Shown here one piece after another: positions 5,166 to 29,902 of a DNA stretch of 30,353 nucleotides (the stretch's first letter is position 1; each line of letters begins with the position of its first letter). Source of the DNA: a virus (Duplodnaviria; Caudoviricetes); the IMG/VR virus record IMGVR_UViG_3300033562_000027, positions 1 to 30,353 of that record; one strand, written 5' to 3'. The translations under genes and the position numbers were made by a program. A model generated the notes under the pieces. The model had not been told where the DNA came from and did not search any database. It worked only from the letters and a program-made list of their open reading frames with translations.

Positions 5166-5600
5166 ATGATCGAGATAAAGCCCTGCACCATTACAGAAAT
5201 AGAGATGTCAGGCCTTGCCGATGAATATGCATCCTATGCCGTAGATGGACTGCCAGCACCTAATCCTCAATGGGATTGTTACCGGCAAATGGAAGCGCAA
5301 GACGCTATCTGTTCTGTTGGGGCATACGAGAGTGGCAAACTGATTGGGTTTATTGTCATGCTTGTGCATGTTTCTCTGCATTATGGAGTCAAGATAGCTA
5401 TGGCAGAATCCATATTTGTGGCCCATGAGTATCGTAAAACAGGGGCTGGCATCAAGTTAATCAGATCGTTTGACCAGTTTGCCAATATGAGTCAAGCAAA
5501 AGCGTCCATCGTGACCGCTCCGACTGGCGGTGAATTGGACAAGGTATTGTCAAAGGCTGGTTATATCAATACTCACACGACCTATGTAAAGGCCATCTAA
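5166..5600 (+). CDS. GNAT-family acetyltransferase
   Basis: Acetyl-CoA-binding motif A (IFVAHEYRKTGAGIKLI), a GKLIGF strand and a C-terminal KAGY. Confidence 0.8.
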   Translation: MIEIKPCTITEIEMSGLADEYASYAVDGLPAPNPQWDCYRQMEAQDAICSVGAYESGKLIGFIVMLVHVSLHYGVKIAMAESIFVAHEYRKTGAGIKLIRSFDQFANMSQAKASIVTAPTGGELDKVLSKAGYINTHTTYVKAI

Positions 5601-6389: not shown

Positions 6390-8081
6390 ATGGATACCAA
6401 GTCCAGACAGCCGACTATCAATGCTCCAGAGCGCGACAAGCTGATCACCAGGTGGGGGCATCTCAAGCAAGAGAGGGCATCATTCTGGAGTCACTGGCAG
6501 GAGTTGAGCAGATATATTCTGCCACGGTCTGGCCGTTTCTTTACCCAGGACAGGAACAAGGGAGAGAAACGACACAACTCCATCTATGATAACACCGGCA
6601 CAAGGTCGCTCAAGATTCTTGGTGCAGGTATGATGGCCGGAGCAACAAGCCCTGCCCGCCCTTGGTTTAGGCTTGGTGTGGCAGATCCTGAACTTAACAA
6701 GTCCAATCCGGTTAAGACCTGGCTGCACGAAGTAGAAGAGATGATGCGTAGAGTCTTCCAGCAATCCAACACCTATCGCTCCCTGCATACCATTTATGAA
6801 GAGCTTGGCACGTTTGGTACTGCATCAGCACTGGTGCTGCCGGATTACGACAAGATTATTCACCACTATCCTATGACCTGCGGTGAATATGCCATTGCCA
6901 CTGACTATCAGGGCAAAGTCAATACTCATTATCGTGAGTTCCAGAAGCCTGTTGTGGATGTGGTTAAGGAATTCGGATACGACAACTGCTCTCAGTATGT
7001 CAGAGATATGTACAACAGGGGCAACCTGGACGCGTGGGTTACACTGATTCATGCCATAGAGCCACGCACTGACAGGGATCTCAAGAGCAAGTCAAGCAAG
7101 CAGATGGCATTTGGTTCCTATTACTTTGAGCTTGGCGGGGAAAAGGGCAAGTATCTCCGCGAGTCTGGGTTCCAAGAGTTCCCTGGTGTAGTGCCTAGAT
7201 GGGCCACTGCCGGTGGTGACATATACGGCAACTCTCCAGGTATGGAAGCATTGGGGGATATTCGCCAGCTTCAACATGAACAGCTCCGCAAAGGTCAGGG
7301 CATAGATTACAACACTCTGCCTCCGATACAAGTTCCAACATCATTAAAGAACAGGGAAGTGGATACGCTGCCTGGTGGCGTTACCTACTTTGACCCTGCA
7401 TCACCTCAACAGGGCATCAGATCACTCTGGGAAGTTCGCACCGACATGAGCCATCTGCTTGCCGACATTCAAGACGTGAGAGAGCGCATCAGATCTGCAT
7501 TTTACGCTGATCTGTTCCTTATGCTGGCAAATGCCACTGACACCAGAATGACTGCCACAGAAGTTGCAGAGCGGCACGAAGAGAAGTTGCTGATGCTTGG
7601 CCCAGTCATGGAGCGACTACACAATGAGTTGCTTGACCCGCTGATCAGCATGACATTCACCCGCATGCTTGAGGCAGGAATACTGCCTCCACCGCCTGAA
7701 GAGTTAAACGGTGTGCAGGTAGATGTAGAGTTCATCAGCATGCTGGCACAGGCACAGAAAGCAATAGGGGCTAACTCAGTTGACAAGTTCATGGGTGGCA
7801 TAGGGATGGTGGCACAGTTCAAGCCAGGTGTGCTTGACAAGGTTGACGAGGATTATTGGGCAGATGCCTATGCCGATATGTTGGGAGTTGATCCAAACCT
7901 TATCGTTGCCAGTGACAAGGTAGCAGTCATCCGCCAGCAGAGAGCCAAGCAGCAACAGGACGCTATGCAGGCGGAGCAGGCACAGCAACAGGCACAGACT
8001 GCAAAAACAATGTCAGATACCCAGGTGGGTGATGGTAATGCGCTTGAGGGCATACTCTCCCAGTTTAGCGGGTACACCTAA
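6390..8081 (+). CDS. Portal / head-tail connector (T7 gp8 / BPP-1 Bbp21-like)
   Basis: 563 aa, with TSPARPWF, YGNSPGMEALGD and MTATEVAERHEEKLLMLGPV motifs. Confidence 0.93.
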   Translation: MDTKSRQPTINAPERDKLITRWGHLKQERASFWSHWQELSRYILPRSGRFFTQDRNKGEKRHNSIYDNTGTRSLKILGAGMMAGATSPARPWFRLGVADPELNKSNPVKTWLHEVEEMMRRVFQQSNTYRSLHTIYEELGTFGTASALVLPDYDKIIHHYPMTCGEYAIATDYQGKVNTHYREFQKPVVDVVKEFGYDNCSQYVRDMYNRGNLDAWVTLIHAIEPRTDRDLKSKSSKQMAFGSYYFELGGEKGKYLRESGFQEFPGVVPRWATAGGDIYGNSPGMEALGDIRQLQHEQLRKGQGIDYNTLPPIQVPTSLKNREVDTLPGGVTYFDPASPQQGIRSLWEVRTDMSHLLADIQDVRERIRSAFYADLFLMLANATDTRMTATEVAERHEEKLLMLGPVMERLHNELLDPLISMTFTRMLEAGILPPPPEELNGVQVDVEFISMLAQAQKAIGANSVDKFMGGIGMVAQFKPGVLDKVDEDYWADAYADMLGVDPNLIVASDKVAVIRQQRAKQQQDAMQAEQAQQQAQTAKTMSDTQVGDGNALEGILSQFSGYT

Positions 8082-8731
8082 TGATGAAGCCATGCCGTGG
8101 TGCAGTACCTGATGGATGGGTGAGATCGGCAGTACCTGGCTGGATTCAGCCTGCCCCAGTCGAGCCTGAACCAGATCCGATACCAGGCCCAGAAGGGCCA
8201 TCCGGCAAAGATGGCATAGATGGTAAAGACGGAGTTGATGGCAAAGATGGTGCTGACGGTAAAGACGGCAAGGATGGCATTAACGGACGCGATGGGAAAG
8301 ACGGCAAGAACGGCAAGGATGGAAAGCAGGGGCCAATAGGTAAGTCAGGGAAAGACGGCAAAAATGGATCAGACGGGCTTGCAGGAGTTGGCATTGCAGA
8401 CATTATAGGTTTCGGTCACGACCTGATCATCAAAATGACTGACGGCAGTGAAAAGAGATTCAGGTTGCCAAGTTCGTCATCATCATTCGGCGGTGGCAGT
8501 TCATCAATCAGTACCGTGGAGGAAGAAGTGGTTTATTCAACCAACTACGACAAAGTGAGTGACACCATTGCCTACGTTGGCGAAGCACTGCCAGGTTCAC
8601 CAACAAGCGCATCGGTGTGGAGAATCAAACGACTTGATACTGCTGACGGTGATCTGGTCACTACCTGGGCTGATGGCGTGGCCGACTTTACGCATATCTG
8701 GGATAACCGGCTAACACTTAATTATTCATAA
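8081..8731 (+). CDS. Collagen-like repeat protein
   Basis: About 22 contiguous Gly-X-Y triplets (mostly GKD) at 8186-8383, a Ser/Gly linker and a C-terminal YVGEA.PG....WRIKR...WDNR domain. Confidence 0.75.
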   Translation: MMKPCRGAVPDGWVRSAVPGWIQPAPVEPEPDPIPGPEGPSGKDGIDGKDGVDGKDGADGKDGKDGINGRDGKDGKNGKDGKQGPIGKSGKDGKNGSDGLAGVGIADIIGFGHDLIIKMTDGSEKRFRLPSSSSSFGGGSSSISTVEEEVVYSTNYDKVSDTIAYVGEALPGSPTSASVWRIKRLDTADGDLVTTWADGVADFTHIWDNRLTLNYS

Positions 8732-8820
8732 GAGAACACCATGTCACTATCCAACACTATATTGTGAAACTTGATAGTTGTTCAAATCAGCTTGACAAGG
8801 CTCTGGGAGCATATCGCTAA

Positions 8821-11397
8821 ATGGCAACAATAACCGTGGATACATATTTGGACGGTGGTGTAGCACGTACTGCGGGTGAGACATGGGCATGTAACGGTGG
8901 GCGTTTAACCATCAGGACAGACACTCGTTGGCACGCTAACGCTCCTGCCAGTATGACTGGTACGCTTGGATCGGTAACGATCTCTGCAACGCTTGGTGGT
9001 GGCTACACTGTTGACGGTCGCAACGTGCGCTGGCTGGCTATCACCGGAGGTTCAGGTACTGCTGCTATCGGCACAACTGTTACGCAAGGTGGCGTGTCTG
9101 GATATTTCCTTGGCTATTGGGCATCTCTCACGTCTGCACCTTCTACCACCATCGGGGCTACTGGCTTTATCAAGCTGCGTGAAGTAACGGGCGGGGCGTT
9201 CTCTGCTGGTGCGCTCTCTGGCATCACAGCTACTGCTGCGGGTGCTGATGTAGTGGGCTGGATTGAGGTTATGCAGGATCAGCTATCCAACATCACCGTT
9301 CCACGACTCGGCGACTTTACTGTTCGTGGTGATTGGTTCGATCTTGGAGTAACCACAGGGTCAGCCAACCAGCTTGTGCAACTACCTACCAACGGATCTG
9401 CCACCTGTTACGTTCCCGGCGTGTGGATTGCCAACACCGACACACCGACCACGGATGAACATTACGACTTTTATCCGTCCATTTATGCAGCCGCCATGAT
9501 AACCACCAACTTTGGTACAGACATTCGCAGCCAGTTTGTCTGCATGGAAACCACCGGAGCTGTTCGTATCGGGCATAACGGCACCACGGCGGTTTGCTAT
9601 GTTCCGCCGGCAGGGCGCAAGATCAGGGTGCCCAACGTATTTGGGAGACAGTGCGCCGCAGCGACAAGGGCCACCACCGCTATCCCCCACGCCACCGCAG
9701 CGACACGCCCAGACTTCACTACCACATCAGCCGGTTATATAGACGTTGAGTATTTCCTCAATGATTGGTACTTCCTTCTTGCCCAGCCGTACAACGTAAA
9801 GTTCAACCACTTCGCTACGTTTGATTATATCAACATCAGCGAGTGTGCAACCGCACTTGATATTTATGATGGTGGTAACGGCATCAGCCAGACACTTGAC
9901 GCCAGAACGGTCACGCTTACGTCAAATTTTGCCGGTGGCAGGGTAGAGAAATACACTTCCCACCGTCATCAGGCAGGAACCACAGACCACGCCTTTGAAG
10001 TGCTGTACTGCCAAGGCCAGACCTTCACCAATGTGAAGAGTGGTATTGTCACCTTTGTCCGTTCTTCAGGCGTTGCGTTTCAGGCAACACAGTGTACCGG
10101 CTTAACTTTTGATGGCTGCTACAACTTCAATCAGTCGATCAACTTCACCACCTGTTTCGATTGCACGGTCAATGACCACGATCATACCGATAGATTTGTA
10201 GGGGCGACCACGACAGCTGGCGTCTATGCCATCGTTATCGCTGCATCGTCAGACAATATTGTTGTCGATGGTGTGACGTTCGGGATGCGTGGGCAGATTG
10301 CTAACGTCCATCCTTACACCGGCATTATCAACATGAGCCTATCCAGCAACGTGAAGTTCAGAAACTTTGGAACTCGATCTGCTTATCTTAATGGCGGCAC
10401 TGCCAACCAACCTGCCTACATTTTTATATCAGGCGGCAACAACAGAAACGTAAAGTTCCAACGGATGTACCTTACCCCCACCAGAACCGGAGCAATCAGT
10501 ACGCTTAACTCTGACAAGAACATGACCTATGAGCATGTCTACGGGGATGGTGCAGATGCAATCGTTCTGGCAAGCTTGAACAGTACCGCAAAGAACTGTG
10601 GGGGAACCAGCTCTGTAACTGGTCAGGCATCGGTTTACGGTACTCATTTCTGGGATGCTTTTGTGTCCGATACCGTTGGCAGAATAACCCTGCCAATGAA
10701 CGAGTCAACCGCTGATACTGCCCCCTATGTGACGATAGTGGCAGGTACGCCAAAGTTCACTTCCGCCGGTCAGATAGTTATGCAGAGCCTGAATGATGAA
10801 GTGATCTTTGAACAGCACTATTTTGCCCTTGGAGTTGTCAGTTTCACCAACACCGCCCCCGTTGTCACTGGCACCAACGTAACCTATGTTTCCGGCCCTG
10901 ATTGGGGGAACCACGATATTTATTTCCAGTATGACAAAGGTGCTGGATGGAATGGTAGCTGGCTGGATCTGACTGCTGCAAACCTTGTAGCGGTAGGAGC
11001 TATTGACCCAAGCATAGGGGTGAAGCTGAAATATCGTATTGTCTGTGATGCTGCATCAACAACCAATGCCATTACGTACATCAGAGTGCAGACAGACAGC
11101 ACGCTGGCAGCACAGTCGGCTAACCTATACCCGTTGGATGTGAACACACTGACGTTCACAGGATTACCAACTGGTACGGATATGGTGGTACTTGAGGCGG
11201 GTACGTCTACTATCCTGTATCAGGTGGATTCGTATGGAAGCACAAGTATTCCTTACGTCTATTCAGGAGCAGATACCATTGATGTAGGATTTATTAAGCC
11301 GGGGTATGTACCACAGTATCTTAGAGGTTTAAGCATAGACACTACTGATTCAAGCATTCCAATTTCTCTTACACAAGACCGCAACTATACAGCATAG
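8821..11397 (+). CDS. Large beta-rich virion fibre/spike protein (possible parallel beta-helix)
   Basis: 858 aa, Thr/Gly/Asn-rich. Repeating beta-helix-like turns (QTFTNV, LTFDGC, IVVDGV, VKFRNF, VKFQRM, MTYEHV). Confidence 0.6.
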   Translation: MATITVDTYLDGGVARTAGETWACNGGRLTIRTDTRWHANAPASMTGTLGSVTISATLGGGYTVDGRNVRWLAITGGSGTAAIGTTVTQGGVSGYFLGYWASLTSAPSTTIGATGFIKLREVTGGAFSAGALSGITATAAGADVVGWIEVMQDQLSNITVPRLGDFTVRGDWFDLGVTTGSANQLVQLPTNGSATCYVPGVWIANTDTPTTDEHYDFYPSIYAAAMITTNFGTDIRSQFVCMETTGAVRIGHNGTTAVCYVPPAGRKIRVPNVFGRQCAAATRATTAIPHATAATRPDFTTTSAGYIDVEYFLNDWYFLLAQPYNVKFNHFATFDYINISECATALDIYDGGNGISQTLDARTVTLTSNFAGGRVEKYTSHRHQAGTTDHAFEVLYCQGQTFTNVKSGIVTFVRSSGVAFQATQCTGLTFDGCYNFNQSINFTTCFDCTVNDHDHTDRFVGATTTAGVYAIVIAASSDNIVVDGVTFGMRGQIANVHPYTGIINMSLSSNVKFRNFGTRSAYLNGGTANQPAYIFISGGNNRNVKFQRMYLTPTRTGAISTLNSDKNMTYEHVYGDGADAIVLASLNSTAKNCGGTSSVTGQASVYGTHFWDAFVSDTVGRITLPMNESTADTAPYVTIVAGTPKFTSAGQIVMQSLNDEVIFEQHYFALGVVSFTNTAPVVTGTNVTYVSGPDWGNHDIYFQYDKGAGWNGSWLDLTAANLVAVGAIDPSIGVKLKYRIVCDAASTTNAITYIRVQTDSTLAAQSANLYPLDVNTLTFTGLPTGTDMVVLEAGTSTILYQVDSYGSTSIPYVYSGADTIDVGFIKPGYVPQYLRGLSIDTTDSSIPISLTQDRNYTA

Positions 11398-11409
11398 AAG
11401 GAGTAGCAC

Positions 11410-12795
11410 ATGGCTAAGATAACAAGTAAAACTTCGTTGGTGGTTGGAACCAACCTTGTGATAAACGAGCCAGCCAAGACTATTCAGTTTCTTGCTGCCG
11501 GTGATTTAGTGTTTAAGGATGGGGTCAGTTGGCAAGCACTGTATTCAAAGCTGGTGGACTTGTGGGCTACAAGTACCTATCAAGACTCCCCGTTCCCCTG
11601 CTATGCTATTGACGCATTATCTGGTCAGTTTCAGATTGGTACAGATGGAGCTACATTTTCTGGATGGTCATTCGCAGATGATACGACAAGGAATGCTCTG
11701 CGTGATGGTGGTTGGTCTGAATACTCGGCAGCCGGTGTTTTGTTGCAGCAGTACGCAGGATTCATTGGTCTGGGTTCTATCACCCCTGCTACCACTGTCC
11801 AGCCTTACTATCACTTGGATGCTGCTGACGCTCCTACCGACTTCCCTTTTACAGATCAGTTCAACGTGGGTGTTAAAGTCTATGGTGACAGCACACATGG
11901 TAATTTTGATAAACGTACCTATGCCAAAACCTTCTGCCGTGAGTATGGTAAGAAGTTTAAATCATCTATTCTAGCTGACACTGGTGCAACGGGAACAGGT
12001 GCTAACAAGGTCAACTTCCTCGTATCAAACGAAGACGACCTGAAGATTACCACGCTGCTTGGTACTGATCAGTCTACTGGCGACAGTGCAATGTCAGGTG
12101 CTCCTTACTCTGGTATCACCGTGGCTTACTATACCAGCGATCAAACTAGAACCATTGGAGTCACAGGTTATCCATTCAGAATTATCATTGAAGGCAATGG
12201 CGGAACGCTTGAGCAGATTTACGCAAAGATCCAGTACCTTCTTCGCCAGAACAGTGACATCAACGTGGGTGGCGATGCTGGAACAGTAACAGGCAAGACT
12301 GCTGCTGATCTGCTTACTTTTGTTGGGGACACACTGGTAACTGCTACAGGCGTTTATATTGATGACGTACTTGCTGCTGACAGTAACCGTGTTGAATTTT
12401 ATGACAAGAACGCTGTCAAGCGCACCAACCCCTATACTGCTGCTGGCAACATGGCATTTAACTCAGTGCTGGTCGGAGCAGGATCTTCTTATCGACTTAT
12501 GTTTACTACTGGGCCGGGTGCTGGTGATGACTTTGGTGAATCTGGTGCTATAACTGTTCAAGATGCAGACGACAATCCTATTACTGGAGCTATCGGCACA
12601 GGGACCATTGCTTTTACCTTTGACTACGACGGAGACACGCTTGGTGGTACAGCAGGTACGGACAAGCCTGTTACGTTAATTGGTATTCGCCCCGGCTCCG
12701 GTAAGTATGCCGTTGCTACAGGCTCCCTATCTCGATCAAAAGGCATCAGTCTGTCGTTGGTAGCAGAAGCAGATCGTGTGTACTCAGCAGCGTAA
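11410..12795 (+). CDS. Putative virion structural protein
   Basis: GAAGGAG RBS. 461 aa, Thr/Gly-rich, with N-terminal DGVSWQALYSKLVDLW...PFP. Confidence 0.6.
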   Translation: MAKITSKTSLVVGTNLVINEPAKTIQFLAAGDLVFKDGVSWQALYSKLVDLWATSTYQDSPFPCYAIDALSGQFQIGTDGATFSGWSFADDTTRNALRDGGWSEYSAAGVLLQQYAGFIGLGSITPATTVQPYYHLDAADAPTDFPFTDQFNVGVKVYGDSTHGNFDKRTYAKTFCREYGKKFKSSILADTGATGTGANKVNFLVSNEDDLKITTLLGTDQSTGDSAMSGAPYSGITVAYYTSDQTRTIGVTGYPFRIIIEGNGGTLEQIYAKIQYLLRQNSDINVGGDAGTVTGKTAADLLTFVGDTLVTATGVYIDDVLAADSNRVEFYDKNAVKRTNPYTAAGNMAFNSVLVGAGSSYRLMFTTGPGAGDDFGESGAITVQDADDNPITGAIGTGTIAFTFDYDGDTLGGTAGTDKPVTLIGIRPGSGKYAVATGSLSRSKGISLSLVAEADRVYSAA

Positions 12796-12804
12796 GGGGA
12801 TCTT

Positions 12805-13383
12805 GTGGCTAAGTTCGAGTTTGACGGACCAAACAAGAGAATAATTATGAAGGACGACACTGTGATAAATGGTGTCTCATCCTTCTCTGTTACAGAGCTA
12901 TGGACAGAGTGGTGCGATTGGATGGTGCTTGACGATAACCTCAAGTATGCACCAGCCTTAGATTCTCTGATGGTGCCCCTGTCAGCAACTGAGTTTGTAG
13001 GACCGTACTTGTTTATGAGAAATGATCTAGGATGGATGGGTGTACCACCACAAGTCAATCCATGTACCGTTATGATCGAGGGTTCGTTCTTTGGTTCAGA
13101 CCCAAACTCTCCAGTTATGGTGAATCACACGGCACAGGCAACAGATCTTATTATAAACAGATCAACCTTGACCTCGACAATGGTTACAAGCGGAGTATCT
13201 GGACCAACAGCGGCTGAGATAGCAGCAGAAGTATGGAACGCATTGATAGACAACTACGTCAATCCAGAGTCAGCCGGTTATGCCCTGGCAAATCTAAGCG
13301 GTGGCAGCGGTTCGTTGACGCAAGAGCAGAATGACCAGCTTATGAATACACTAACCACAGCGACATTTATAGGCATGAAGTAG
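12805..13383 (+). CDS. Putative virion structural protein
   Basis: GTG start with GGGG RBS. FDGPNKRI...ELWTEWCDW...NLKY pattern plus an 'AEIAAEVW' element seen in phage fibre proteins. Confidence 0.55.
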   Translation: MAKFEFDGPNKRIIMKDDTVINGVSSFSVTELWTEWCDWMVLDDNLKYAPALDSLMVPLSATEFVGPYLFMRNDLGWMGVPPQVNPCTVMIEGSFFGSDPNSPVMVNHTAQATDLIINRSTLTSTMVTSGVSGPTAAEIAAEVWNALIDNYVNPESAGYALANLSGGSGSLTQEQNDQLMNTLTTATFIGMK

Positions 13384-21201: not shown

Positions 21202-24200
21202 ATGAGCTTGTACGATCTGCAAGAATCTCTTGGAATGAACTCAGCCGGTAACGCGGTGGTTAATCTCTCCGATGCCTTTGGTCAGAATCCAGTTGAACAT
21301 GCTGAACGGCGTAAACTGGAAAAGCAGACAGGTACTCCGGCAACGCTGATGGATGACCCTGAAGTAATGGTAGAGGCCAAGAAACAGGCATATGTAAAGG
21401 GATTGGCTCTCAGCCATACTCCGGCCACGTCAAAGTTTGCAGAGAATCCAAACAATGCTCCGCTGATGTATGATGATATGGACAACCTCACCAGCTTTGA
21501 AGACCGTATCAAAAAGCTGCCGAAACGGTCTATGTCAACAATGGGCATTGCAGGGCCGAAGGATATAGGCACTGCACAGGCGGCATCTGACTTCCTGAAA
21601 TCCACCTCTGATTTTATGGATAAAGCTGTTATCCCTACTCCGGCCAGAGCTTATGCTGCATATCAGCAAGGCACGGGCGGTATGTATCAGTGGATAGGTG
21701 AAATGATAGGATGGGATGGGCTTGCACAGCAGGGCAAGTCTATGCACGAAGATGCAAAAGCTGTTGAAGAGTTTATTCAGAAAGACAAGCAAATAGATCC
21801 CGACTCATGGACAGGTGCAACTGCCGTAGCATTGCAGAGCATGTACCTACAAGCTCCATTGATGGCAGCAGGTTCGCTGGCAGCCACAGTAAGGGGCGCA
21901 ACATCTGTCACCCTGGGCGGCATGGGCATGACCACCGCCGGTCAGACATACGCTGACAGAAGAGAAAAAGGTTTCAGCCCTGTTGCATCTGGATGGTCTG
22001 CCGCGTTTGATGGTGCAGTCGAAGTAGGCACAGAGATCATGCCGACATCCAGAGTCTTTGAAATGTTAAAGCCAACTGCCAAGGCATCGATGGGCAAGCT
22101 GATGACATCCGTTGCCAAATTGTACGGCGAGGAAATGGTGGGAGAATCCATCGCCACGTTCATGCAAGATGCCAATAATCGCTTTATGGGTAATCCTGGC
22201 CAGACTGCCGCGCAGAGAGTTGATGCCATCGGAGAGTATGTGCAATCTGGTGAGGCACTGACAAATTGGCTTAACACTATCAAGACAACTTTTATTCAAA
22301 CATCGCTTATGGCCGGTAGCGCATCTGGAATCAACCGAATCAGATCCTTTGGAAAAGATAGTGTGGCCGGCAGAACTCAACAGCAGGCTGAGCATACTGC
22401 CCAACTGGTTGAAGCAATCATAGCCGCAGAAGGTTCACGGCTCTTGACCAACTCGCCGGAGACATTCACCGAGTTTGCCCAGAGGGTTGGCGAAGAGCAT
22501 GGGCATGATAAGATTTACTTCCAGGCCGACAAGCTGATCAATGAGGCAGTCAATCAAGGTATACCTAAAGCACAGATCCCAGAGTGGTTATCCCAGTACG
22601 GAGTTGATCCGGTACAGCTTGCCACTGATTTGAAGACCGGCGGCACTATTGCCATCGATTTCGGCAGTGCAGTTGCCAACTTCAAAAATGATGGAGTCCT
22701 GCAAGCCCTTCAGAGTGAGTTTCTGGTTTCTCCTGATATGCACGGCTTGGCAGACGCAGAAAAAGGCATACAGATAGAATCAGCTCACCTAGAGCGACTT
22801 AACGATATTTATGCCGCAGATCAGGCCAAAAAGGTCGATGCAGCCGATGTTGAGGCATGGAAACAGGAAATACTAGGCAGGCCGGAGCTTGGCAAGTACA
22901 TCAAGGAGGAACATCTGGACAGCATGGCGGCAAGAGCGAATGCCCTTTCCAAGATGACCGGCATGCCTGCCATTGATTTCGTCAACGAGATGCTGCTGCC
23001 ATACAATATCAAGACAATGCGGTTTAAGGATTTTCAGAAACAGCGTCAAGAAAATGCCGGTATGGATGTCGGTGTTCTTAACGCAATCCGCACTGGCAAC
23101 GGTATCCCTACAGAGTCGCAGGCATACGGGCCGAGTTTGATTGACTTCTTGCGCGACAAGGGCGGGATTAAAGACCAAGGCGGAGAATTGGCAGCAATGG
23201 ATGCACATGCTGCCACAAAGCAGGCATTCAAGAAAAACTTTGTAAATGAATCCGGCATGAACCAGGACACGGCGCGGGAGTTGGCTGTTGAAGCTGGTTA
23301 TCTGAACGCTGATGCGACCATTGCAGACTTACTGGATATGATAGGGGCGGAACTGTCTGGCACTCCGAAGTATTCCGCCAACAACAGAAATGATGCCGTT
23401 GCCAACAAGCTGGAAAAGATCAACGAAACTCGCGCCATGTTTGAGCAGTTCGGTGTTGATCCAACTGGTGACATTGACGAGATACTGCAAAAGCTGTCCG
23501 ACATGCATACCGAGCAGGATGATCTGCCGTTTCAGGCTGATGAAAAAACGGGATTGGTTCAGCGTCCAGATGAAACACTGGAGCAGTTTGTTGATCGGCG
23601 CAACAGTACGCTGCGTGACAAGCTGGTTGCTGAGATGACACCGGAAGAAAAAGACCATGCTCTACTACTAAACGAATTGACGCATATTCCAAACCGTCGG
23701 GCATACCATGAAGACGAGGCAAAAAATGGTGGCCCGATGAAAATCCAGGTTTCTGTTGATGCGGATTCGCTGAAGTTTGTAAACGACAACATGGGGCATC
23801 ATGCTGGCGATAACATGCTTATTGCTATTGCCGAGGCATTGCATAAATCATCCCTTGAGTTAAGCAGTCGTGGGTTTGATGTTAGGGTGTATCATGTTTC
23901 AGGTGATGAGTTTATCGTCCAGAGCGACAACGAAAAGGCCGTGGCATTTATATTAAACTCTGTTGACAAGATACTGGCAGGGAGTATAATTAAATCAGAT
24001 CAGGTCGAAGGGTATTTTGTAGAAACAATCCCCCATATTACCTATGGAGTAGACAACAATGGCAACCTCAAAAGAGCAGATAAGCAACTCCAAGAATCAA
24101 AACGAATTGCCACAGATAGAGGAGTTCGTGCAGAGCGTGGTGAGCCGCCTTACACCACAAAGGTCGTGGACAGATCCGATGACGGGAAGAACTACGACTA

Positions 24201-27200
24201 TAACGATATCAAATCCTTATTCAAAAAATTAGAAGAAGAACGCAAAAAAGCCCGAGAAGAAGCTGCAAAAAAAGGCACAGATCCCGCTGACGTTAATCAC
24301 CCTGACAATGTAGCTGCTAGGTTCGCAAAGCTACTACAGGGCAATCCCCTCTTTCAATCCGCTTGGCACGGCACTCCCCACACATTCGATAAGTCACTTG
24401 CATCTGACGGGATAGGGGATTCCCCTCTTGTCAAGGGCTTTACGAATAGAATGGTATCCGATGCTCAGGTGCTCACTGATTTTGTTAATACTCCACCCTT
24501 TATTGAGAAGGGTCTTGACGGCTTCGATATCCCAACGCAAAACGCGCAACTCAGCAGAGTGGCCAGGCTTATCGAGAACGACAAGATTAGAAAGCTCGTT
24601 GTTGAGTCTATTCCGGTCGATATGATGAACATGCTCATTGAGAAGGAGCTTTCTGCCGATATGCTGCTCCATGATGTGACGGTGTTCAGGGACTTGTTTA
24701 CCCTCGACCGTGATAATTTTGTATCCCTTCCCGTTGATATGACCAGTCGCCTTGTGGATATCGTAGCATTTACGGGAACAAAAGAGCTTCTCTCTTCCCT
24801 TTATGTTGGCAAGGGGGCGGGAAAACTCAACACTGCAAAACTCACACTTAAAAGCTGGCATGATAAATTACCTCCTGATTTTTCAAGCATTATATCAGAA
24901 ACAACAGGGATTACAACTAATAGTATTTTCTCTGATGATGATGTGGCAATTACGGCGATGTACCAATCACAGCAGAACAACTACCTGGCCGCACTTACCC
25001 AAGATGCCGATGGCAACAATGTCGTAAACCTGTTCGCCGCCGCAGACAAATCCTCATTCCTCCATGAAGCAGGGCATATCTTCCTTAACCACCTGAAACT
25101 GGTGGCCGAGAAACACAACCTCCAAACAGCAGAATGGCAGGCCGCAAAAGAATGGTTGGGCATTGGCGATGATGGCATTATCACCCGTGAACAGCATGAA
25201 CAGTTTGCCGAGCATTGGGAAGTATACCTGATGGAAGGTAAATCACCGACTCCTGAACTGCGTGGGGCATTCCGTTCGTTTAAGCGGTGGCTGACTGCCA
25301 TATATGAAAACGTCAAGTCAGGTCGGTTCGGGCAACGTGATGGCATAGTCATCACTCCCGAAATAAAAGATCTGTTTGACCGTTTGCTGGCAACTGAGGA
25401 AGAGATCCAAGAGGCCAAAGACGAAGCTGCCCTGATTGCCATGCTTGATGACAAGATGCTGAACGGCACTGGTTTCTCTGCTGAAGAGATTGCTGCGTAT
25501 CAGAAGATAGTCATGCAGGCAGAAGACTCTGCCCGGGAGCGGATGGACAAGCACAAGATGATCGGCAGGGAAGAGCGTCTGGCCGGATGGAAGGAGCAAG
25601 CCGAGCGTGATGCCCGTGGTGTGCCGGTCTATGCTTTCCAAGAGTGGATGTCAGACATCGGCATTGATCCGAAGTCGGCGGCACAATATGGCGAAGTGCC
25701 AAGCAGGACGGTATTCAAGGCAGAAGGCGAAGACATTAACGTGGCAATTGCCGAACATGGCAGTCAGTTCGGGTATGAGAATGCAACTGACTTCATGCAT
25801 GATGTTAGGACGTACCCTATCCGCCAGCAGTGGATGGAAAAGAGAGTGGCACAGCTTGAAGCCGCTTATGATTTGGCACAGGATACTCAAGAGGCAATCC
25901 GCACTACATCACTCCGCCGTCAACTTGAGCTGGAATCCAACTGGCTGGAGCGCAAAATAAAGCAAAAGCGCATGAGTGAAGAACGGGCGCAGCAAAAGGC
26001 CGAGGCTGTTGATGCTGCCAAACAAGCCGCATACGAGCAGAGATGGGCGCAGGCTGAAGAGGACATGCTCTGGAAGATGGATCAGGCCAAGGCAACCACC
26101 CCGAAAGAAGTAATGAAAGAATGGGCCGAGCGCACGGTTGCAAGTCGCACCATGACAAAGATCCGCAGCATCTCAAAGCTGGTGGCAGAATCCGCCAAGC
26201 ATCGCAAGGAATCAATAGCCGCTGCCCGTGCCGGTGATTGGGAAACCGCTCTACAAAAGAACGAGCAAGCCCGCATGACCGAAGCATTAATCACGGCCAG
26301 TTATGCCGCTGCAAATAAGTTCAAGCAGATGCAGTCACGTTTGGCGAAGATCGCCAAGTGGACAAACGACAACAAGAGCGTGAAGGTCGGTGAAAACTTC
26401 CGTGATCAGATTAACCGGCTGATGCAGCAGTATGCCATTGCCAATAAAGAGTTTAATCCGAACATACCCAGTGTGCAGGACTTCGCCGCTAACCTTATTG
26501 ATGGTGAGGATGATATCGGGGCGGTGCTGCCGGAGTGGATAGGCATTGATCCCACTGACCAAAAGAACCTGACATGGCATGAATTGCAAGAACTGCATGA
26601 TGCCCTGAACTATCTGTATAAGCACGGCAGGGATGAAGTGGAAGGCAAGAAACTGGCAAACGGTCAGTATGTGTCTGCCTATGCCAGCGATATCTTGATG
26701 GCCCAGGGCGATATCAAGGGTATGCCCAACCTGAAATCAGATGCTACCAAATTCGGCAAGCTCTGGCAGGGAGTGCAGAAGGGTTACCGCAAGTTCTTTG
26801 CTAATACCGGCATCCTGCGGTTCATCGCCCAGCGGATGGACGGATACAAGAACATCGGCAAGAACGGCCAGATGGGGCCAGCAGAGCAACTGGTGCAGAA
26901 TGTTATCAATGGAATGGCGGCATCAAATGACCTCTGGATTAAAGTGTCTGCCGAGATTGAACCGCAACTTGCAGTGCTGTTTAAGAACCGCAACCAACAA
27001 CATGATGACCTGCCGTGGCCTTCAAAGCTGACCAATGCTGGCAAGTCGTGGACACATGAGCGGGTTGTGGTTGCTGCTCTTAACATGGGCAACGAGTCCA
27101 ACCTCCAACGGTTGATGGACGGTTATGGCTTAACTGAAAACCATATCCGCTTAATTCAATCCAAGCTGACTGCCGAAGAGTGGCGGGCAGTGCAGAGCAT

Positions 27201-28782
27201 CTGGAACACGATCAACTCACTCTGGCCGCAGGTCGCTGACACCCATGAGCGGCTGAAGTATTACCGGCCAAAGAAGATTGAAGCACAGGGCTTTAGCGTT
27301 ACCACTGCAGACGGGCAACAGTTATTCCTTGATGGTGGTTACTACCCTGCCGCGTATGACAAAGAACTGGATAACGATGCTGCACGTTGGGGTGAAAAGG
27401 AAGATCTGCTTGCATCCCATGAAGCTGTGATGCAAGTGCCTATCGCAAAGTCAGGCTTTGCCAAGAGCAGGGCAGACAGGGTGAACCGTCCAATAGACTT
27501 GTCACTTAATAACCTGTCCGTGCATTTTACCGACATCATCAAATTCATTACACTGGCAGAAGTAACCCGTGATGCGGATAGGGTATTTCAGGACAGAGAG
27601 CTTGTAAACCGCAACATGGAAACCATCGGCCAGGATATGCACAATGCTATTCGTCCGGCACTGCAAAACGTACTGCGTCCAGAAAGACGATTAGCGGGTG
27701 GCTTGCTTGAGCGTGGCCGAGTGGCAATGTCAACCTTCTATATGGGATATAATGCATGGACTGCCATCCAGAACGTGACCGGAGTATTCCCTGCTATTCG
27801 TCAAGTCGGATTCAACAACTACCTTGACGGAATTGCACAGACAATCAGCAATCCATTGAAGTCCCATAAAGCTATGTTGCAGATGTCTGGATATATGCGG
27901 CTGCGTGAAACAAACATTGAACGCGAATTAAAGGGTCAAATCAGCGACTTCAAAATCGGCGGCATGGAGATTAACGGCAAACGCTACACGTTCAAAGATG
28001 TGCAGTCACTGGCATTCGCCGGTATCAGGCTGATTGACAGCATAGTAGCCCTGCCCGCATGGTATGGTCGCTATAACTCGGAGATGGAAAAGCATGGCGA
28101 TATGCAGCGGGCTGTTGAATCTGCCGACTCTTCAATAAACAAGGCTCTGGGGTCTGGTCTGGCAATAGACTCCACCGGCACCGGGCGGCATCAGATCTGG
28201 TCACTGTTCGCCCCGTTCATGTCCTTTGCCTCAACTCAGCAGGAAGTGCTTACAACCGAAAGGCAGGCATGGAAGGAAGGCAAGATAAGCACCAGCGAAT
28301 TTCTTTATGGACACCTTATGACCTGGCTGGCTCCGGCCATTATGTCAACATTCCTTCAGGGTGCGTTGATGTACGGACTCATGGGGGCAATCGGTGGTGG
28401 TGATGACGACAAGCGCGAGAAAGGTGGCATGGATTATCTGACAGACATTTTGTCTTACCGGATGATGGGCATACCCTATCTGAGAGATATCTTTAACGGT
28501 GTCATTCAAGGTGTTGAAAAGAAAGCACCGATAACATCGGCGAGAATGCCAATAGCAGAAGCATTCAGGATGGCACAGCAGTTGGGCTATCGCATGGGCA
28601 ATATGGATGGATCAGAGAAAACTGTAAAGGCCGCGATGTGGTCGGCAGCAGAACTGACATCACTTTACTTGCATATCCCTGCTACCAGAATTTTTGAGCG
28701 GTGGCAGAAGGGAACAAAAAACATCGAATCCGGTCATGGATGGTGGGGTAATCACTTCATCCCGCAGGAAAAGAAAAAGTAG
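21202..28782 (+). CDS. Giant internal virion/ejection polyvalent protein with GGDEF, ART-like remnant and HExxH peptidase modules
   Basis: 2526 aa, in the last ejection-protein slot before the tail fibre. SGDEF at aa 900-904, AWHGTPHTFDK at aa 1054, FLHEAGH at ~aa 1288. Confidence 0.85.
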   Translation: MSLYDLQESLGMNSAGNAVVNLSDAFGQNPVEHAERRKLEKQTGTPATLMDDPEVMVEAKKQAYVKGLALSHTPATSKFAENPNNAPLMYDDMDNLTSFEDRIKKLPKRSMSTMGIAGPKDIGTAQAASDFLKSTSDFMDKAVIPTPARAYAAYQQGTGGMYQWIGEMIGWDGLAQQGKSMHEDAKAVEEFIQKDKQIDPDSWTGATAVALQSMYLQAPLMAAGSLAATVRGATSVTLGGMGMTTAGQTYADRREKGFSPVASGWSAAFDGAVEVGTEIMPTSRVFEMLKPTAKASMGKLMTSVAKLYGEEMVGESIATFMQDANNRFMGNPGQTAAQRVDAIGEYVQSGEALTNWLNTIKTTFIQTSLMAGSASGINRIRSFGKDSVAGRTQQQAEHTAQLVEAIIAAEGSRLLTNSPETFTEFAQRVGEEHGHDKIYFQADKLINEAVNQGIPKAQIPEWLSQYGVDPVQLATDLKTGGTIAIDFGSAVANFKNDGVLQALQSEFLVSPDMHGLADAEKGIQIESAHLERLNDIYAADQAKKVDAADVEAWKQEILGRPELGKYIKEEHLDSMAARANALSKMTGMPAIDFVNEMLLPYNIKTMRFKDFQKQRQENAGMDVGVLNAIRTGNGIPTESQAYGPSLIDFLRDKGGIKDQGGELAAMDAHAATKQAFKKNFVNESGMNQDTARELAVEAGYLNADATIADLLDMIGAELSGTPKYSANNRNDAVANKLEKINETRAMFEQFGVDPTGDIDEILQKLSDMHTEQDDLPFQADEKTGLVQRPDETLEQFVDRRNSTLRDKLVAEMTPEEKDHALLLNELTHIPNRRAYHEDEAKNGGPMKIQVSVDADSLKFVNDNMGHHAGDNMLIAIAEALHKSSLELSSRGFDVRVYHVSGDEFIVQSDNEKAVAFILNSVDKILAGSIIKSDQVEGYFVETIPHITYGVDNNGNLKRADKQLQESKRIATDRGVRAERGEPPYTTKVVDRSDDGKNYDYNDIKSLFKKLEEERKKAREEAAKKGTDPADVNHPDNVAARFAKLLQGNPLFQSAWHGTPHTFDKSLASDGIGDSPLVKGFTNRMVSDAQVLTDFVNTPPFIEKGLDGFDIPTQNAQLSRVARLIENDKIRKLVVESIPVDMMNMLIEKELSADMLLHDVTVFRDLFTLDRDNFVSLPVDMTSRLVDIVAFTGTKELLSSLYVGKGAGKLNTAKLTLKSWHDKLPPDFSSIISETTGITTNSIFSDDDVAITAMYQSQQNNYLAALTQDADGNNVVNLFAAADKSSFLHEAGHIFLNHLKLVAEKHNLQTAEWQAAKEWLGIGDDGIITREQHEQFAEHWEVYLMEGKSPTPELRGAFRSFKRWLTAIYENVKSGRFGQRDGIVITPEIKDLFDRLLATEEEIQEAKDEAALIAMLDDKMLNGTGFSAEEIAAYQKIVMQAEDSARERMDKHKMIGREERLAGWKEQAERDARGVPVYAFQEWMSDIGIDPKSAAQYGEVPSRTVFKAEGEDINVAIAEHGSQFGYENATDFMHDVRTYPIRQQWMEKRVAQLEAAYDLAQDTQEAIRTTSLRRQLELESNWLERKIKQKRMSEERAQQKAEAVDAAKQAAYEQRWAQAEEDMLWKMDQAKATTPKEVMKEWAERTVASRTMTKIRSISKLVAESAKHRKESIAAARAGDWETALQKNEQARMTEALITASYAAANKFKQMQSRLAKIAKWTNDNKSVKVGENFRDQINRLMQQYAIANKEFNPNIPSVQDFAANLIDGEDDIGAVLPEWIGIDPTDQKNLTWHELQELHDALNYLYKHGRDEVEGKKLANGQYVSAYASDILMAQGDIKGMPNLKSDATKFGKLWQGVQKGYRKFFANTGILRFIAQRMDGYKNIGKNGQMGPAEQLVQNVINGMAASNDLWIKVSAEIEPQLAVLFKNRNQQHDDLPWPSKLTNAGKSWTHERVVVAALNMGNESNLQRLMDGYGLTENHIRLIQSKLTAEEWRAVQSIWNTINSLWPQVADTHERLKYYRPKKIEAQGFSVTTADGQQLFLDGGYYPAAYDKELDNDAARWGEKEDLLASHEAVMQVPIAKSGFAKSRADRVNRPIDLSLNNLSVHFTDIIKFITLAEVTRDADRVFQDRELVNRNMETIGQDMHNAIRPALQNVLRPERRLAGGLLERGRVAMSTFYMGYNAWTAIQNVTGVFPAIRQVGFNNYLDGIAQTISNPLKSHKAMLQMSGYMRLRETNIERELKGQISDFKIGGMEINGKRYTFKDVQSLAFAGIRLIDSIVALPAWYGRYNSEMEKHGDMQRAVESADSSINKALGSGLAIDSTGTGRHQIWSLFAPFMSFASTQQEVLTTERQAWKEGKISTSEFLYGHLMTWLAPAIMSTFLQGALMYGLMGAIGGGDDDKREKGGMDYLTDILSYRMMGIPYLRDIFNGVIQGVEKKAPITSARMPIAEAFRMAQQLGYRMGNMDGSEKTVKAAMWSAAELTSLYLHIPATRIFERWQKGTKNIESGHGWWGNHFIPQEKKK
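23668..24110 (+). other. GGDEF (diguanylate cyclase-like) domain within the giant protein
   Basis: NELTHIPNRR, DADSLKFVNDNMGHHAGDNML, HVSGDEF (SGDEF at 23899-23913) and LKRADKQLQESKR match the GGDEF blocks DxLTxLxNRR, DxDxFKxxNDxxGHxxGD, RxGGDEF and RADxALYxAK. Confidence 0.88.
23963..23990 (+). promoter_or_regulatory. Consensus sigma70 promoter inside the GGDEF coding sequence
   Basis: TTGACA (23963-23968), 16-nt spacer, TATAAT (23985-23990). Both hexamers are perfect. Confidence 0.75.
24059..24232 (+). CDS. Overprinted 57-aa ORF in the +1 frame of the giant gene
   Basis: Below the ORF-track cut-off. GGAG at 24046-24049, 9 nt before the ATG, ~70 nt downstream of the perfect promoter. Translates to MATSKEQISNSKNQNELPQIEEFVQSVVSRLTPQRSWTDPMTGRTTTITISNPYSKN. 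Confidence 0.5.
   Translation: MATSKEQISNSKNQNELPQIEEFVQSVVSRLTPQRSWTDPMTGRTTTITISNPYSKN
24394..24861 (-). CDS. Nested antisense HNH homing-type endonuclease (Zn finger + HNH + HTH)
   Basis: CEFC...FCSRKC zinc finger, EHRHIMEQHIGRKL..NEHVHHIDRNRLNNELSNL HNH motif and C-terminal GWSINKISEHLSIGYHSIRKAL HTH. RBS AGGAGGT lies 8 nt upstream. Confidence 0.9.
   Translation of the reverse strand: MPAFKCEFCSVEFSRPLANIKGREKLFCSRKCYDIHKATGHINGKGYKIITVEGKQVPEHRHIMEQHIGRKLLLNEHVHHIDRNRLNNELSNLVVLDKPGHSAELRVLRWDIEAVKTLLNKGWSINKISEHLSIGYHSIRKALDKRGIPYPVRCK
24870..24916 (-). promoter_or_regulatory. Promoter and RBS of the antisense HNH gene
   Basis: On the minus strand: TTGTAA (24916-24911), 16-nt spacer ending in TGA, TATAAT (24894-24889), i.e. 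an extended -10. AGGAGGT at 24876-24870. Confidence 0.8.
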
Positions 28783-28831: not shown

Positions 28832-29902
28832 ATGACGATATCCAGTCAGACCAGAATAGCGGGGCCATTTACTGGCAACGGAATTACCACGACATTTCCG
28901 TTTGCCTTCAAGGTCTTCTCTGTTGATGAAGTAGATGTAGTCGTTGGAACAGACGGTGTCGAATCAACACCCACCATCAACAGCGACTATACAGTAACGC
29001 TCAACGCTGACCAGAATACAAACCCTGGCGGGTCAATAAATACGACAACTCCGCTTGCAGTGAGTAGCGTCCTTGTTATCACTTCCAGCGTTGAACTGCT
29101 GCAACCTGTTGACCTCACCAACCAAGGCGGTTTTTATCCCTCTGTAATTAACGATGAGTTTGACCGGCTGACTATTATCACTCAACAACTGCAAGAGCAA
29201 CTTGGCAGATCTTTGCAGGTAAGTCTAACATCTGGTGTAATTCCCACTGATTATCTTGGCGAATGCGAACTGTCCGCTTCTAATGCCGCTGCAAGTGCCG
29301 CCGATGCTGCCGCCGCTGAACTGGCTGCTGAAGCTGCTGCAAGTGTACTGTCTGACGGGGACAAAGGCGACATAACCGTATCCGGTAGTGGTGCAACGTG
29401 GACTATTGATAATGCCGCAGTAACCTACGCAAAACTTGCAACTGATGTTTATGACAGGGTTGTGCAGCGAGTTGAGGCGACGCCTTATACTTCAGTCGCA
29501 ACTGTCTCATCTACTTTCCCTGTTGATGACACTATTCCACAGAATGACGAAGGTTACGAGTTGATGACTGTCACAATCACACCAAAATCTTCAACTAATA
29601 GGCTAATTATATCTTTTGATACTGCACTATCGAAATTAGCCACAGGGAATATAATTATTGCTTTGTTTCAAGATTCAAACGCCAATGCTATTGCGTCCAG
29701 CTTAACATCTAATGAAGATGGATATGCGTCTAGAGATGGAATAGTACATGAAATGGCCGCTGGCACAACAAGTGCAACCACTTACAAAATTAGAGTTGGT
29801 GTGGGAGCAGGTAGTCTTACAATAAACGGTATAGCAACTAATAACCGATATTTGGGCGGTAGTATGGCAGCTAGATTGTCTGTGACGGAGGTACGAGCAT
29901 GA
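28832..29902 (+). CDS. Tail fibre protein (T7 gp17-type N-terminal attachment domain)
   Basis: MTISSQTRIAGPFTGNGITTTFPFAFKVF...QPVDLTNQGGFYP..IND.FDRLTI, then an Ala-rich linker, DGDKGDITVSGSG and a C-terminal ITPKSSTNRLII beta-sandwich. Confidence 0.85.
   Translation: MTISSQTRIAGPFTGNGITTTFPFAFKVFSVDEVDVVVGTDGVESTPTINSDYTVTLNADQNTNPGGSINTTTPLAVSSVLVITSSVELLQPVDLTNQGGFYPSVINDEFDRLTIITQQLQEQLGRSLQVSLTSGVIPTDYLGECELSASNAAASAADAAAAELAAEAAASVLSDGDKGDITVSGSGATWTIDNAAVTYAKLATDVYDRVVQRVEATPYTSVATVSSTFPVDDTIPQNDEGYELMTVTITPKSSTNRLIISFDTALSKLATGNIIIALFQDSNANAIASSLTSNEDGYASRDGIVHEMAAGTTSATTYKIRVGVGAGSLTINGIATNNRYLGGSMAARLSVTEVRA

What the first reader, a model, noticed from the sequence alone, without database searches (positions are those of the whole stretch)
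23536..24357. Diguanylate-cyclase (GGDEF) domain in a phage ejection protein
Seen: all GGDEF blocks are present. The metal-binding Asp, Lys, guanine-binding Asn and Asp (DxDxxKxxNDxxGHxxGD) and the C-terminal Lys are retained. The active loop reads H-V-SGDEF instead of R-x-GGDEF. An RGFD sits one residue off the canonical RxxD inhibitory-site spacing, and no sensor domain is recognisable. Known: proteins in this gene slot of T7-like podoviruses are injected with the DNA, and c-di-GMP controls motility, pili, EPS and some phage receptors. Inference: the virion may deliver a c-di-GMP synthase, or a GTP/c-di-GMP sink or dominant-negative partner, at infection. This could remodel the host surface (superinfection exclusion, biofilm) or perturb nucleotide-messenger immunity.
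Basis: partly seen in the sequence, partly recalled or inferred. Interest (0 to 1): 0.88.

Follow-up and report, generated by a model that had tools for sequence, protein, structure and literature searches.

The report
Phage ejection protein carrying diguanylate cyclase
A giant phage protein that is likely injected into the host carries an intact-looking copy of the bacterial enzyme domain for the signal c-di-GMP, predicted to pair with itself and be active; this design was catalogued by computer in 2017, and right beside the domain a nuclease gene lies backwards inside the same open reading frame.

Summary
The GGDEF domain is real: Pfam above cut-off, confident model, and the top fold matches are diguanylate cyclases. 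It sits in a 2,526-aa polyvalent protein in the last ejection-protein slot of a podovirus. It belongs to a phage lineage (97 distinct sequences) that keeps the catalytic Asp/Asn/Lys/GDE nearly invariant, mostly reads H-x-SGDEF and adds a conserved C-terminal tail. The RGFD 'I-site' is a private insertion. The stand-alone gp44 of cultured phage YuA falls in the same lineage. A homodimer through the N-terminal helix is predicted (0.44 against 0.00 for controls). Best reading: an unregulated c-di-GMP synthase delivered at infection (0.55); activity and packaging are untested. GGDEF in polyvalent proteins was described in 2017, and this scan found it before on other genomes. It lies codon-aligned inside the giant frame, where the closest relative has an ADP-ribosyltransferase-like core. 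Four distinct relatives repeat this nesting in other giant genes. It is an antisense variant of the ShiLan hidden HNH, a layout the scan also noted before in other host genes.

The parts
21202..28782 (+). 2,526-aa polyvalent protein in the last internal-virion (ejection) slot: LPD22 - hydrophobic helices - GGDEF module - remnant ART-like ends around an antisense HNH - HExxH metallopeptidase - phrog_9880 C-terminal region
21277..21513 (+). LPD22 (large polyvalent protein domain 22), aa 26-104
   Evidence: Pfam PF18834 36.4 bits, cut-off 28.6
23593..23601 (+). (D/E)RR motif, aa 798-800, just upstream of the GGDEF core; role unknown
   Evidence: R799 in 89 of 97, R800 in 93 of 97; absent from YuA gp44
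23617..23667 (+). N-terminal helices aa 806-822, predicted homodimer interface
   Evidence: score 0.44, best control 0.00
23674..24108 (+). GGDEF core, aa 825-969: D853, K858, N861, D870, H898-x-SGDEF (900-904), K967
23869..23880 (+). RGFD (aa 890-893) inside a private insertion; not a conserved I-site
   Evidence: insertion in 2 of 97 sequences, RxxD in no other
24109..24150 (+). lineage-specific C-terminal tail G974-x-R976-x-x-R979-G980-x-x-P983
   Evidence: G974 95, R976 93, R979 88, P983 93 of 97; also in YuA gp44; the G-x-R-x-x-RG pattern was found in none of the 70 rows L154-L224 with a readable core motif
24355..24393 (+). N-terminal remnant (aa 1052-1064) of an ART-PolyVal-like domain
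   Evidence: matches the start of the P0002-type domain
24394..24861 (-). 155-aa Cys-rich/HNH/HTH-like endonuclease gene, codon-aligned and antisense inside the giant ORF (aa 1065-1220), with no TTA/CTA/TCA codon, so the host frame stays open
   Evidence: Pfam HNH_3 E 1.7e-8; codon counts; dN/dS 0.18 in the HNH frame against L052
24870..24916 (-). AGGAGG ribosome site (24871-24876) and extended -10 sigma-70-type promoter (TTGTAA-16-TATAAT with TG, 24916-24889) of the HNH gene
   Evidence: sequence; 10 of 12 consensus match
24925..24966 (+). C-terminal remnant (aa 1242-1255) of the ART-like domain
   Evidence: aligns with the end of the P0002 domain
25063..25077 (+). HEAGH zincin-type metallopeptidase motif (aa 1288-1292) with a downstream Glu-bearing helix
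   Evidence: only HExxH in the protein; no Pfam MPTase hit; assignment rests on the motif description in PMC5512222
18738..21198 (+). two upstream internal virion / ejection-type genes (225 aa, 593 aa)
   Evidence: phrog_418 internal virion protein E 7.9e-13; phrog_10475 and phrog_1044 N-terminal matches

Best explanation
The stretch is a GGDEF domain of a phage-specific lineage inside a giant polyvalent protein, which is likely packaged and injected with the DNA, where the domain is predicted to pair through its own N-terminal helix and would make c-di-GMP from host GTP without sensor or feedback control. Shown: fold, catalytic residues, family conservation, gene slot, lack of a conserved I-site or sensor. 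Predicted: the homodimer. Inferred: packaging, cytoplasmic exposure (perhaps after release by the HExxH peptidase), catalysis with guanine specificity, and an early c-di-GMP pulse that lowers motility and pilus display and so limits superinfection or rival elements.
For: Pfam, AlphaFold2 and Foldseek. In 97 distinct family sequences D853, N861, G901, D902 and E903 are invariant; K858 is kept in 96, K967 in 95 and D870 in 85. The module is the best conserved part of the protein against its closest relative (62% against 18-54% elsewhere). 9 of 97 members keep canonical R-x-GGDEF and 15 keep the Arg, and the quick tree puts them on the same side of one branch (SH-aLRT 93). An SGDEF enzyme (MbaA) makes c-di-GMP in vivo (PMC8079147 passages). 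The fourth-position Glu is the general base and a cross-dimer Arg favours guanine (PMC6456294 section 13); my mapping of that Arg to R832 is inferred. Homodimer score 0.44, best of 3 controls 0.00; runs agree in at least 88% of contacts, partner pLDDT at least 85; the mark was reached by 20 of 30 solved homodimers and 1 of 23 monomers. 45 of 50 viral loci hold the domain in frames of 1,000 codons or more, and 12 of 21 scanned loci have virion genes among the three upstream ORFs. The stand-alone YuA gp44 is annotated 'putative role in host cell conversion'. LK3 lysogens carrying a related gene overproduce biofilm, a correlation only (PMC8471281 passages). High c-di-GMP induces plzR, which removes type IV pili and blocks YuA adsorption (PMC11461919 passages).
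Against: I found no activity measurement for any member (paper searches). The Arg before the loop is His in 82 of 97 and the first Gly is Ser in 84 of 97, a pair whose effect is unknown. This copy lacks the family's R970 (Ala here; Arg in 81 of 97). MbaA's purified cytoplasmic part showed no cyclase activity in vitro. One of three dimer runs scored 0.35, below the mark; the listed interface is the stalk helix, not the active sites; and the pass may come from likeness to solved DGC dimers. TM-scores to DGCs are only about 0.5-0.6 by query length. 9 of 21 scanned loci had no recognised virion gene upstream. LK3 lysogens also gained flagellar motility, which does not fit high c-di-GMP. Host and virion content are unknown for this uncultured phage.
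Confidence: 0.55

Rival explanations
1. The domain is an active nucleotidyl transferase, but the H-x-SGDEF loop and the Arg-rich tail shift its product (linear pppGpG/pGpG, cGAMP or another dinucleotide) to jam nucleotide-based immunity rather than lifestyle signalling.
For: Lineage-wide R-to-H and G-to-S changes and a conserved extra tail. D870 is Asn in 9 and Thr in 3 of 97. Single changes switch the product in Hypr GGDEFs (PMC6456294). Iyer 2017 proposes interference with host nucleotide responses.
Against: This copy keeps the guanine-reading N861/D870 and R832, and canonical R-x-GGDEF members lie in the same lineage.
Confidence: 0.17
2. The enzyme is active, but it works when the late gene is expressed (before lysis, or in a lysogen), or it is cut off by the HExxH peptidase before packaging, so it is not a virion-delivered effector.
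For: The same lineage occurs as a stand-alone non-virion gene in YuA-type phages. P1 DdrB is processed before packaging (PMC5512222 passage). No proteomics are available.
Against: 45 of 50 viral loci fuse it into giant frames, often in the virion block (12 of 21). Keeping it fused there is best explained by delivery.
Confidence: 0.13
3. The domain is a non-catalytic GTP or c-di-GMP binder, or a dominant-negative partner of host cyclases; the (D/E)RR motif would help to bind c-di-GMP.
For: Degenerate loop. A DRR motif binds c-di-GMP in Caulobacter Cle peptides (PMC7382256 passages), and some members have GP(D/E)RR.
Against: Metal ligands and general base are invariant. The Cle motif needs DRR-x11-(R/K)RxxD, which this copy lacks. 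A few injected copies would bind little (copy number recalled from T7-type virions). YuA gp44 lacks DRR.
Confidence: 0.1
4. This copy is a decaying passenger; the neighbouring ART-like domain is already lost.
For: The adjacent domain has been replaced by an HNH cassette. A970 stands in place of the family Arg.
Against: It is the best conserved segment against P0002, and all catalytic residues are intact.
Confidence: 0.05

Closest known systems
GGDEF domains of phage/prophage polyvalent proteins (Iyer et al. 2017, PMC5512222; e.g. Acetonema longum WP_004096050.1)
   Same: GGDEF fused with MPTase, ART-type and LPD domains in a giant protein among late virion genes; proposed injected nucleotide signal.
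   Different: The passages and sections I read give no motif signature, no link to YuA gp44 and no activity test; its supplementary files were not read. Here the ART-like neighbour is replaced by an antisense HNH.
Stand-alone GGDEF of Yuavirus/Vojvodinavirus phages (YuA gp44, MP1412, Bordetella CN1)
   Same: 31-34% identity over the module; same DSLK-W-x-N-D-x-x-GH block, N-terminal helix and RxxRG-x-x-P tail; same side of the tree.
   Different: About 150 aa, free gene next to an anti-restriction gene; R-V-SGDEF or R-I-AGDEF; no DRR; not in the virion block.
Cellular diguanylate cyclases (SiaD, DosC, DgcR, DgcB, PleD, WspR)
   Same: Fold and catalytic set; stalk-helix dimer predicted.
   Different: No sensor, no conserved RxxD, H-x-SGDEF loop, extra tail; 17-24% identity for most listed fold hits (range 15-24%).
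ShiLan domain, hidden HNH in actinophage methylases (Arsenault et al. 2025, PMC11855218)
   Same: HNH with zinc fingers inside a host gene whose frame stays free of stops; no intron or intein signal.
   Different: ShiLan is on the sense strand in another frame, and the paper has no occurrence of 'antisense', 'opposite strand' or 'reverse'. Here the HNH is antisense and codon-aligned, has its own promoter, sits in giant virion-type genes at several sites, and stands in place of a domain core.

Membership tests
GGDEF domain (PF00990) | profile score above the curated cut-off | tested here: met
   37.8 against 23.8 bits; TIGR00254 39.2 against 37.4 on the domain, 34 on the whole protein
GGDEF domain (PF00990) | GGDEF palm fold | tested here: met
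   pLDDT 88.3; Foldseek E 7e-10 to SiaD, all listed top hits are GGDEF domains
Active diguanylate cyclase | metal ligands and base (D853, D902, E903), K858, guanine-reading N861/D870, K967 | tested here: met
   alignment to MorA and DosC; conservation
Active diguanylate cyclase | canonical R-x-GG(D/E)EF loop | tested here: not met
   H-V-SGDEF; an SGDEF enzyme can be active; the His form is untested
Active diguanylate cyclase | dimerisation of two GGDEF domains | tested here: inconclusive
   predicted homodimer 0.44 against 0.00 through helix aa 806-822; may reflect solved DGC dimers
Active diguanylate cyclase | c-di-GMP synthesis from GTP | not testable with these tools
   needs an enzyme assay
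I-site-regulated DGC | conserved RxxD five residues before the loop | tested here: not met
   six residues before, in a private insertion
Hypr GGDEF (cGAMP) | Ser/Thr in place of the guanine-reading Asp | tested here: not met
   D870 retained; Thr in 3 of 97 relatives
Phage polyvalent protein (Iyer 2017) | several unrelated domains including LPD/MPTase in one giant polypeptide | tested here: met
   LPD22 and GGDEF, HExxH motif, ART-like remnants
Phage polyvalent protein (Iyer 2017) | encoded among late virion genes | tested here: met
   tail adaptor, nozzle and two internal virion genes upstream, tail fibre downstream
Phage polyvalent protein (Iyer 2017) | packaged and injected | not testable with these tools
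   inferred from position only
ShiLan-type hidden HNH | intact HNH inside a host frame with no stop | tested here: met
ShiLan-type hidden HNH | sense strand, shifted frame, methylase host | tested here: not met
   antisense, codon-aligned, polyvalent host
Group I intron carrying an endonuclease | intron RNA core | tested here: not met
   no Rfam match at E up to 1 in 23000-26000; only 63 bases lie between the HNH start and the resumed host motif

The most novel reading that the evidence does not exclude
Phages carry their own lineage of sensor-free, self-dimerising dinucleotide cyclases. It is used both as a free early gene (YuA gp44) and as cargo of the giant ejection protein, so a virion can fire a c-di-GMP (or altered dinucleotide) pulse before any phage gene is expressed. 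The same giant genes are colonised by a dedicated family of self-promoted HNH homing endonucleases that lie antisense, avoid the three codons that would stop the host frame, and can replace dispensable effector domains.
Probability: 0.4. Interest if true: 0.72.

Novelty: new member of a known kind. Interest (0 to 1): 0.42.

Why it matters
A virion-delivered second-messenger synthase would let a phage reset host lifestyle and receptor display at the moment of entry. The idea has been in print since 2017, and my searches found no test. The practical gain is that the lineage includes a 156-aa gene of a cultured phage (YuA gp44), which makes the activity question directly testable. The nested antisense HNH shows that some 'linkers' of giant phage proteins are hidden selfish genes that annotation would miss.

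Tried and rejected
RGFD as I-site: rejected. Cle-type c-di-GMP peptide motif: the spacing does not match, resemblance only. Intron around the HNH: no Rfam match, and no joint or variant in the laid contigs (X1 may be the source of this DNA, X2 covers only scattered short pieces). Protein search with the antisense insert (aa 1066-1241) returned only the window's own protein among 624 candidates; this is no evidence of rarity, since DNA searches found relatives. Alignment A2 had two rows with wrongly chosen frames or bounds and was not used. The viral search with A3 returned only the known L052 contig. No RNA holder listed. The profile search of cluster representatives was queued but never returned, so the family size is a lower bound. 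The careful tree did not finish; the quick tree is used. The YuA genome paper is not held. The PDB sequence search with the 225-aa upstream protein gave nothing meaningful. No earlier scan notes exist for this genome or this sequence.
Full report
Observation. The stretch is aa 779-1052 of a 2,526-aa ORF (21202-28782, +). Pfam GGDEF scores 37.8 bits against a cut-off of 23.8 over aa 825-969. An AlphaFold2 model of aa 785-1000 has mean pLDDT 88.3. Its listed best PDB matches are all GGDEF domains (SiaD E 7e-10, DosC, DgcR, DgcB, PleD; TM by query about 0.5-0.6). Sequence alignment to MorA and DosC places D853-x-D-x-x-K858-x-x-N861-D ... GD870 and H898-V-S900-G-D902-E903-F on the canonical blocks.

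Setting. The record is a linear viral contig, 71% complete by CheckV, held by one microbial-mat run that may be its source. Gene order: terminase, portal, capsid of the GP7 family, tail adaptor, nozzle, a phrog_418 internal virion protein, a 593-aa protein with the N-terminus of phrog_10475/1044, the giant ORF, tail fibre. The Bbp16, Bbp19 and GP7 hits point to an epsilon15/BPP-1-type podovirus (names recalled). The giant protein has LPD22 and one HExxH motif, which makes it a polyvalent protein in the sense of Iyer et al. 2017. That paper (PMC5512222; passages and sections 21-22 read, supplements not seen) lists GGDEF among polyvalent domains and proposes interference with host nucleotide signalling or action against rival elements. 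Five earlier notes of this scan describe the same design on other genomes.

The family. A region search found 59 proteins of 1,412-4,400 aa among 490 candidates. I pooled 59 proteins and 48 locus segments (L035, L041 and L048 dropped as short), leaving 97 distinct sequences. D853, N861, G901, D902 and E903 are kept in 97, K858 in 96, K967 in 95 and D870 in 85 (N 9, T 3). The loop is H-x-SGDEF in 76 and R-x-GGDEF in 9; His stands in 82 and Arg in 15. RGFD lies in an insertion found in 2 of 97, so it is no conserved I-site. The family also keeps an upstream (D/E)RR and a tail G-x-R-x-x-R-G-x-x-P; that tail pattern was found in none of the 70 rows L154-L224 with a readable core motif, which are nearly all ordinary cellular cyclases. 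Against P0002 the module is 62% identical, and other segments are 18-54%. In 21 of 38 candidate loci I scanned the three upstream ORFs (63 of 113 listed): 12 have tail, ejection or internal virion families, and 9 have none recognised.

A cultured relative. tblastn of annotated phages gave 57 records (39 Pseudomonas, 9 Bordetella by name). The top ones are the stand-alone GGDEF genes of YuA-type phages. YuA gp44 (156 aa, 'putative role in host cell conversion') shares the DSLK block, the N-terminal helix and the tail, and reads R-V-SGDEF. A quick tree of 83 rows puts the 47 phage-type rows, with three YuA-type rows nested among mostly Arg-retaining members, on one side of a branch against 36 cellular cyclases (SH-aLRT 93, unrooted, long branches flagged; the careful search did not finish). 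A review notes the YuA protein (PMC10333796 passage). LK3 lysogens carrying a related gene overproduce biofilm but also gain flagellar motility, with no causal test (PMC8471281 passages).

Mechanism. GGDEF enzymes work as dimers; the fourth-position Glu is the base, and a cross-dimer Arg favours guanine (PMC6456294 section 13). E903 is present, and R832 is my inferred match to that Arg (Arg in 70 of 97). Two copies of the module with GTP and Mg were predicted to pair: score 0.44 (runs 0.48, 0.35, 0.44), best of 3 controls 0.00, runs agreeing in at least 88% of contacts, partner pLDDT at least 85. The mark was reached by 20 of 30 solved homodimers and 1 of 23 monomers, and solved DGC dimers may drive the pass. 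The contact is the helix pair at aa 806-822, which YuA gp44 also has. SGDEF can be active in vivo (MbaA), although the purified MbaA fragment was not (PMC8079147 passages). I therefore favour an unregulated c-di-GMP synthase delivered with the ejection protein (0.55). Catalysis, product, packaging and effect are inferred. One plausible benefit is receptor shut-down: c-di-GMP induces plzR, whose product removes type IV pili and blocks YuA adsorption (PMC11461919 passages). A sink is unlikely because the catalytic residues are invariant and few copies would be injected (copy number recalled). The DRR motif resembles the Cle peptide motif, but the required second half is missing (PMC7382256 passages). 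Paper searches for a tested phage cyclase found none; the phage YIP peptides activate a host cyclase instead (PMC8085984 listing and passages). The library lacks most subscription papers, and the YuA genome paper was not held.

The nested gene. At 24394-24861 on the minus strand lies a 155-aa HNH gene (Pfam E 1.7e-8), codon-aligned inside the giant frame. It has an AGGAGG site 8 bases before its ATG and an extended -10 promoter match of 10 of 12. It uses none of TTA, CTA or TCA, the codons that would stop the host frame; the chance of that under the window's codon usage is 0.004. P0002 has at this place a domain of about 260 aa related to ART-PolyVal over its first 45 or so columns (hhalign probability 95.7). 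The window keeps only the first 13 and last 14 residues of it. L052 carries a 72% identical HNH between the same two motifs of an unrelated 3,243-aa polyvalent protein. Over 113 codons dN/dS is 0.18 in the HNH frame and 0.56 in the host frame. Of 92 HNH loci examined (12, 80), 5 lie in antisense frames of 1,964 codons or more: L052, L065, L066, L067 and L068, with L066 and L067 apparently the same sequence. These are 5 of the 6 loci that match from residue 28 or earlier to 147 or later; L053 is not nested, nor are L096 and L097, which match only the later part on short contigs. Many of the other loci are too short to show nesting. L054 lies in a 259-codon frame with an ART-like motif. L052, L054, L065, L066 and L068 have no TTA/CTA/TCA, while L053 has five; three of the five show TGnTATAAT upstream; and the insertion sites differ, one splitting LPD23. 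There is no Rfam match, and the source contig spans the region in one piece. The likely reading is read-through of the insert as a junk linker, with homing inferred and not shown. The closest published case is the sense, out-of-frame ShiLan HNH (PMC11855218 passages). One search for antisense in-frame cases gave nothing relevant. Earlier scan notes report antisense HNH nests in other host genes and a sense one in a polyvalent gene; I took the ShiLan lead and the read-through wording from them.

Verdict. Real, a new member of a kind predicted in 2017 and seen repeatedly in this scan. The added value is the lineage signature, the cultured stand-in YuA gp44, the predicted self-dimer and the nested HNH. 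Interest 0.42.

Noticed in passing
window 24394-24916 (-): Self-promoted HNH gene nested antisense and codon-aligned in the giant ORF, in place of an ART-like core; recurs in L052, L065, L066/L067 and L068 at several sites.
   Followed up: yes
L015:8771-10765: Family GGDEF in a frame of only 665 codons, directly after two internal-virion/ejection genes: a small form of the same slot.
   Followed up: no
L041:9896-10435, L051:9842-10522, L151:665-1225, L148:2901-3647, L150:5797-6672: Short stand-alone or small-ORF members of the phage GGDEF lineage.
   Followed up: partly
window 8081-13383 (+): Four genes between the portal and the Bbp19 gene: a collagen-repeat protein and 858-, 461- and 192-aa Thr/Gly-rich proteins without Pfam or NCBIfam hits (the 858-aa one has a weak phrog_22757 match); they look like fibre or decoration proteins.
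   Followed up: no
window 28832-29902 (+): Tail fibre whose C-terminal part hits Pfam Pgp3 C-terminal domain (Chlam_vir, E 2.7e-7, above cut-off).
   Followed up: no
window 25-1506 (+): Helicase-like piece fused to an N6/N4 DNA methylase.
   Followed up: no
window 5166-5600 (+): GNAT acetyltransferase between the terminase and the portal.
   Followed up: no
P0050, P0059, P0053; family column D870: Some relatives deviate: Asn (9) or Thr (3) of 97 at the guanine-reading Asp suggests other products in part of the family.
   Followed up: no
window 23500-25200: GC dips to about 0.45-0.46 across the GGDEF and HNH modules against about 0.50 in the rest of the gene, in line with module exchange.
   Followed up: no
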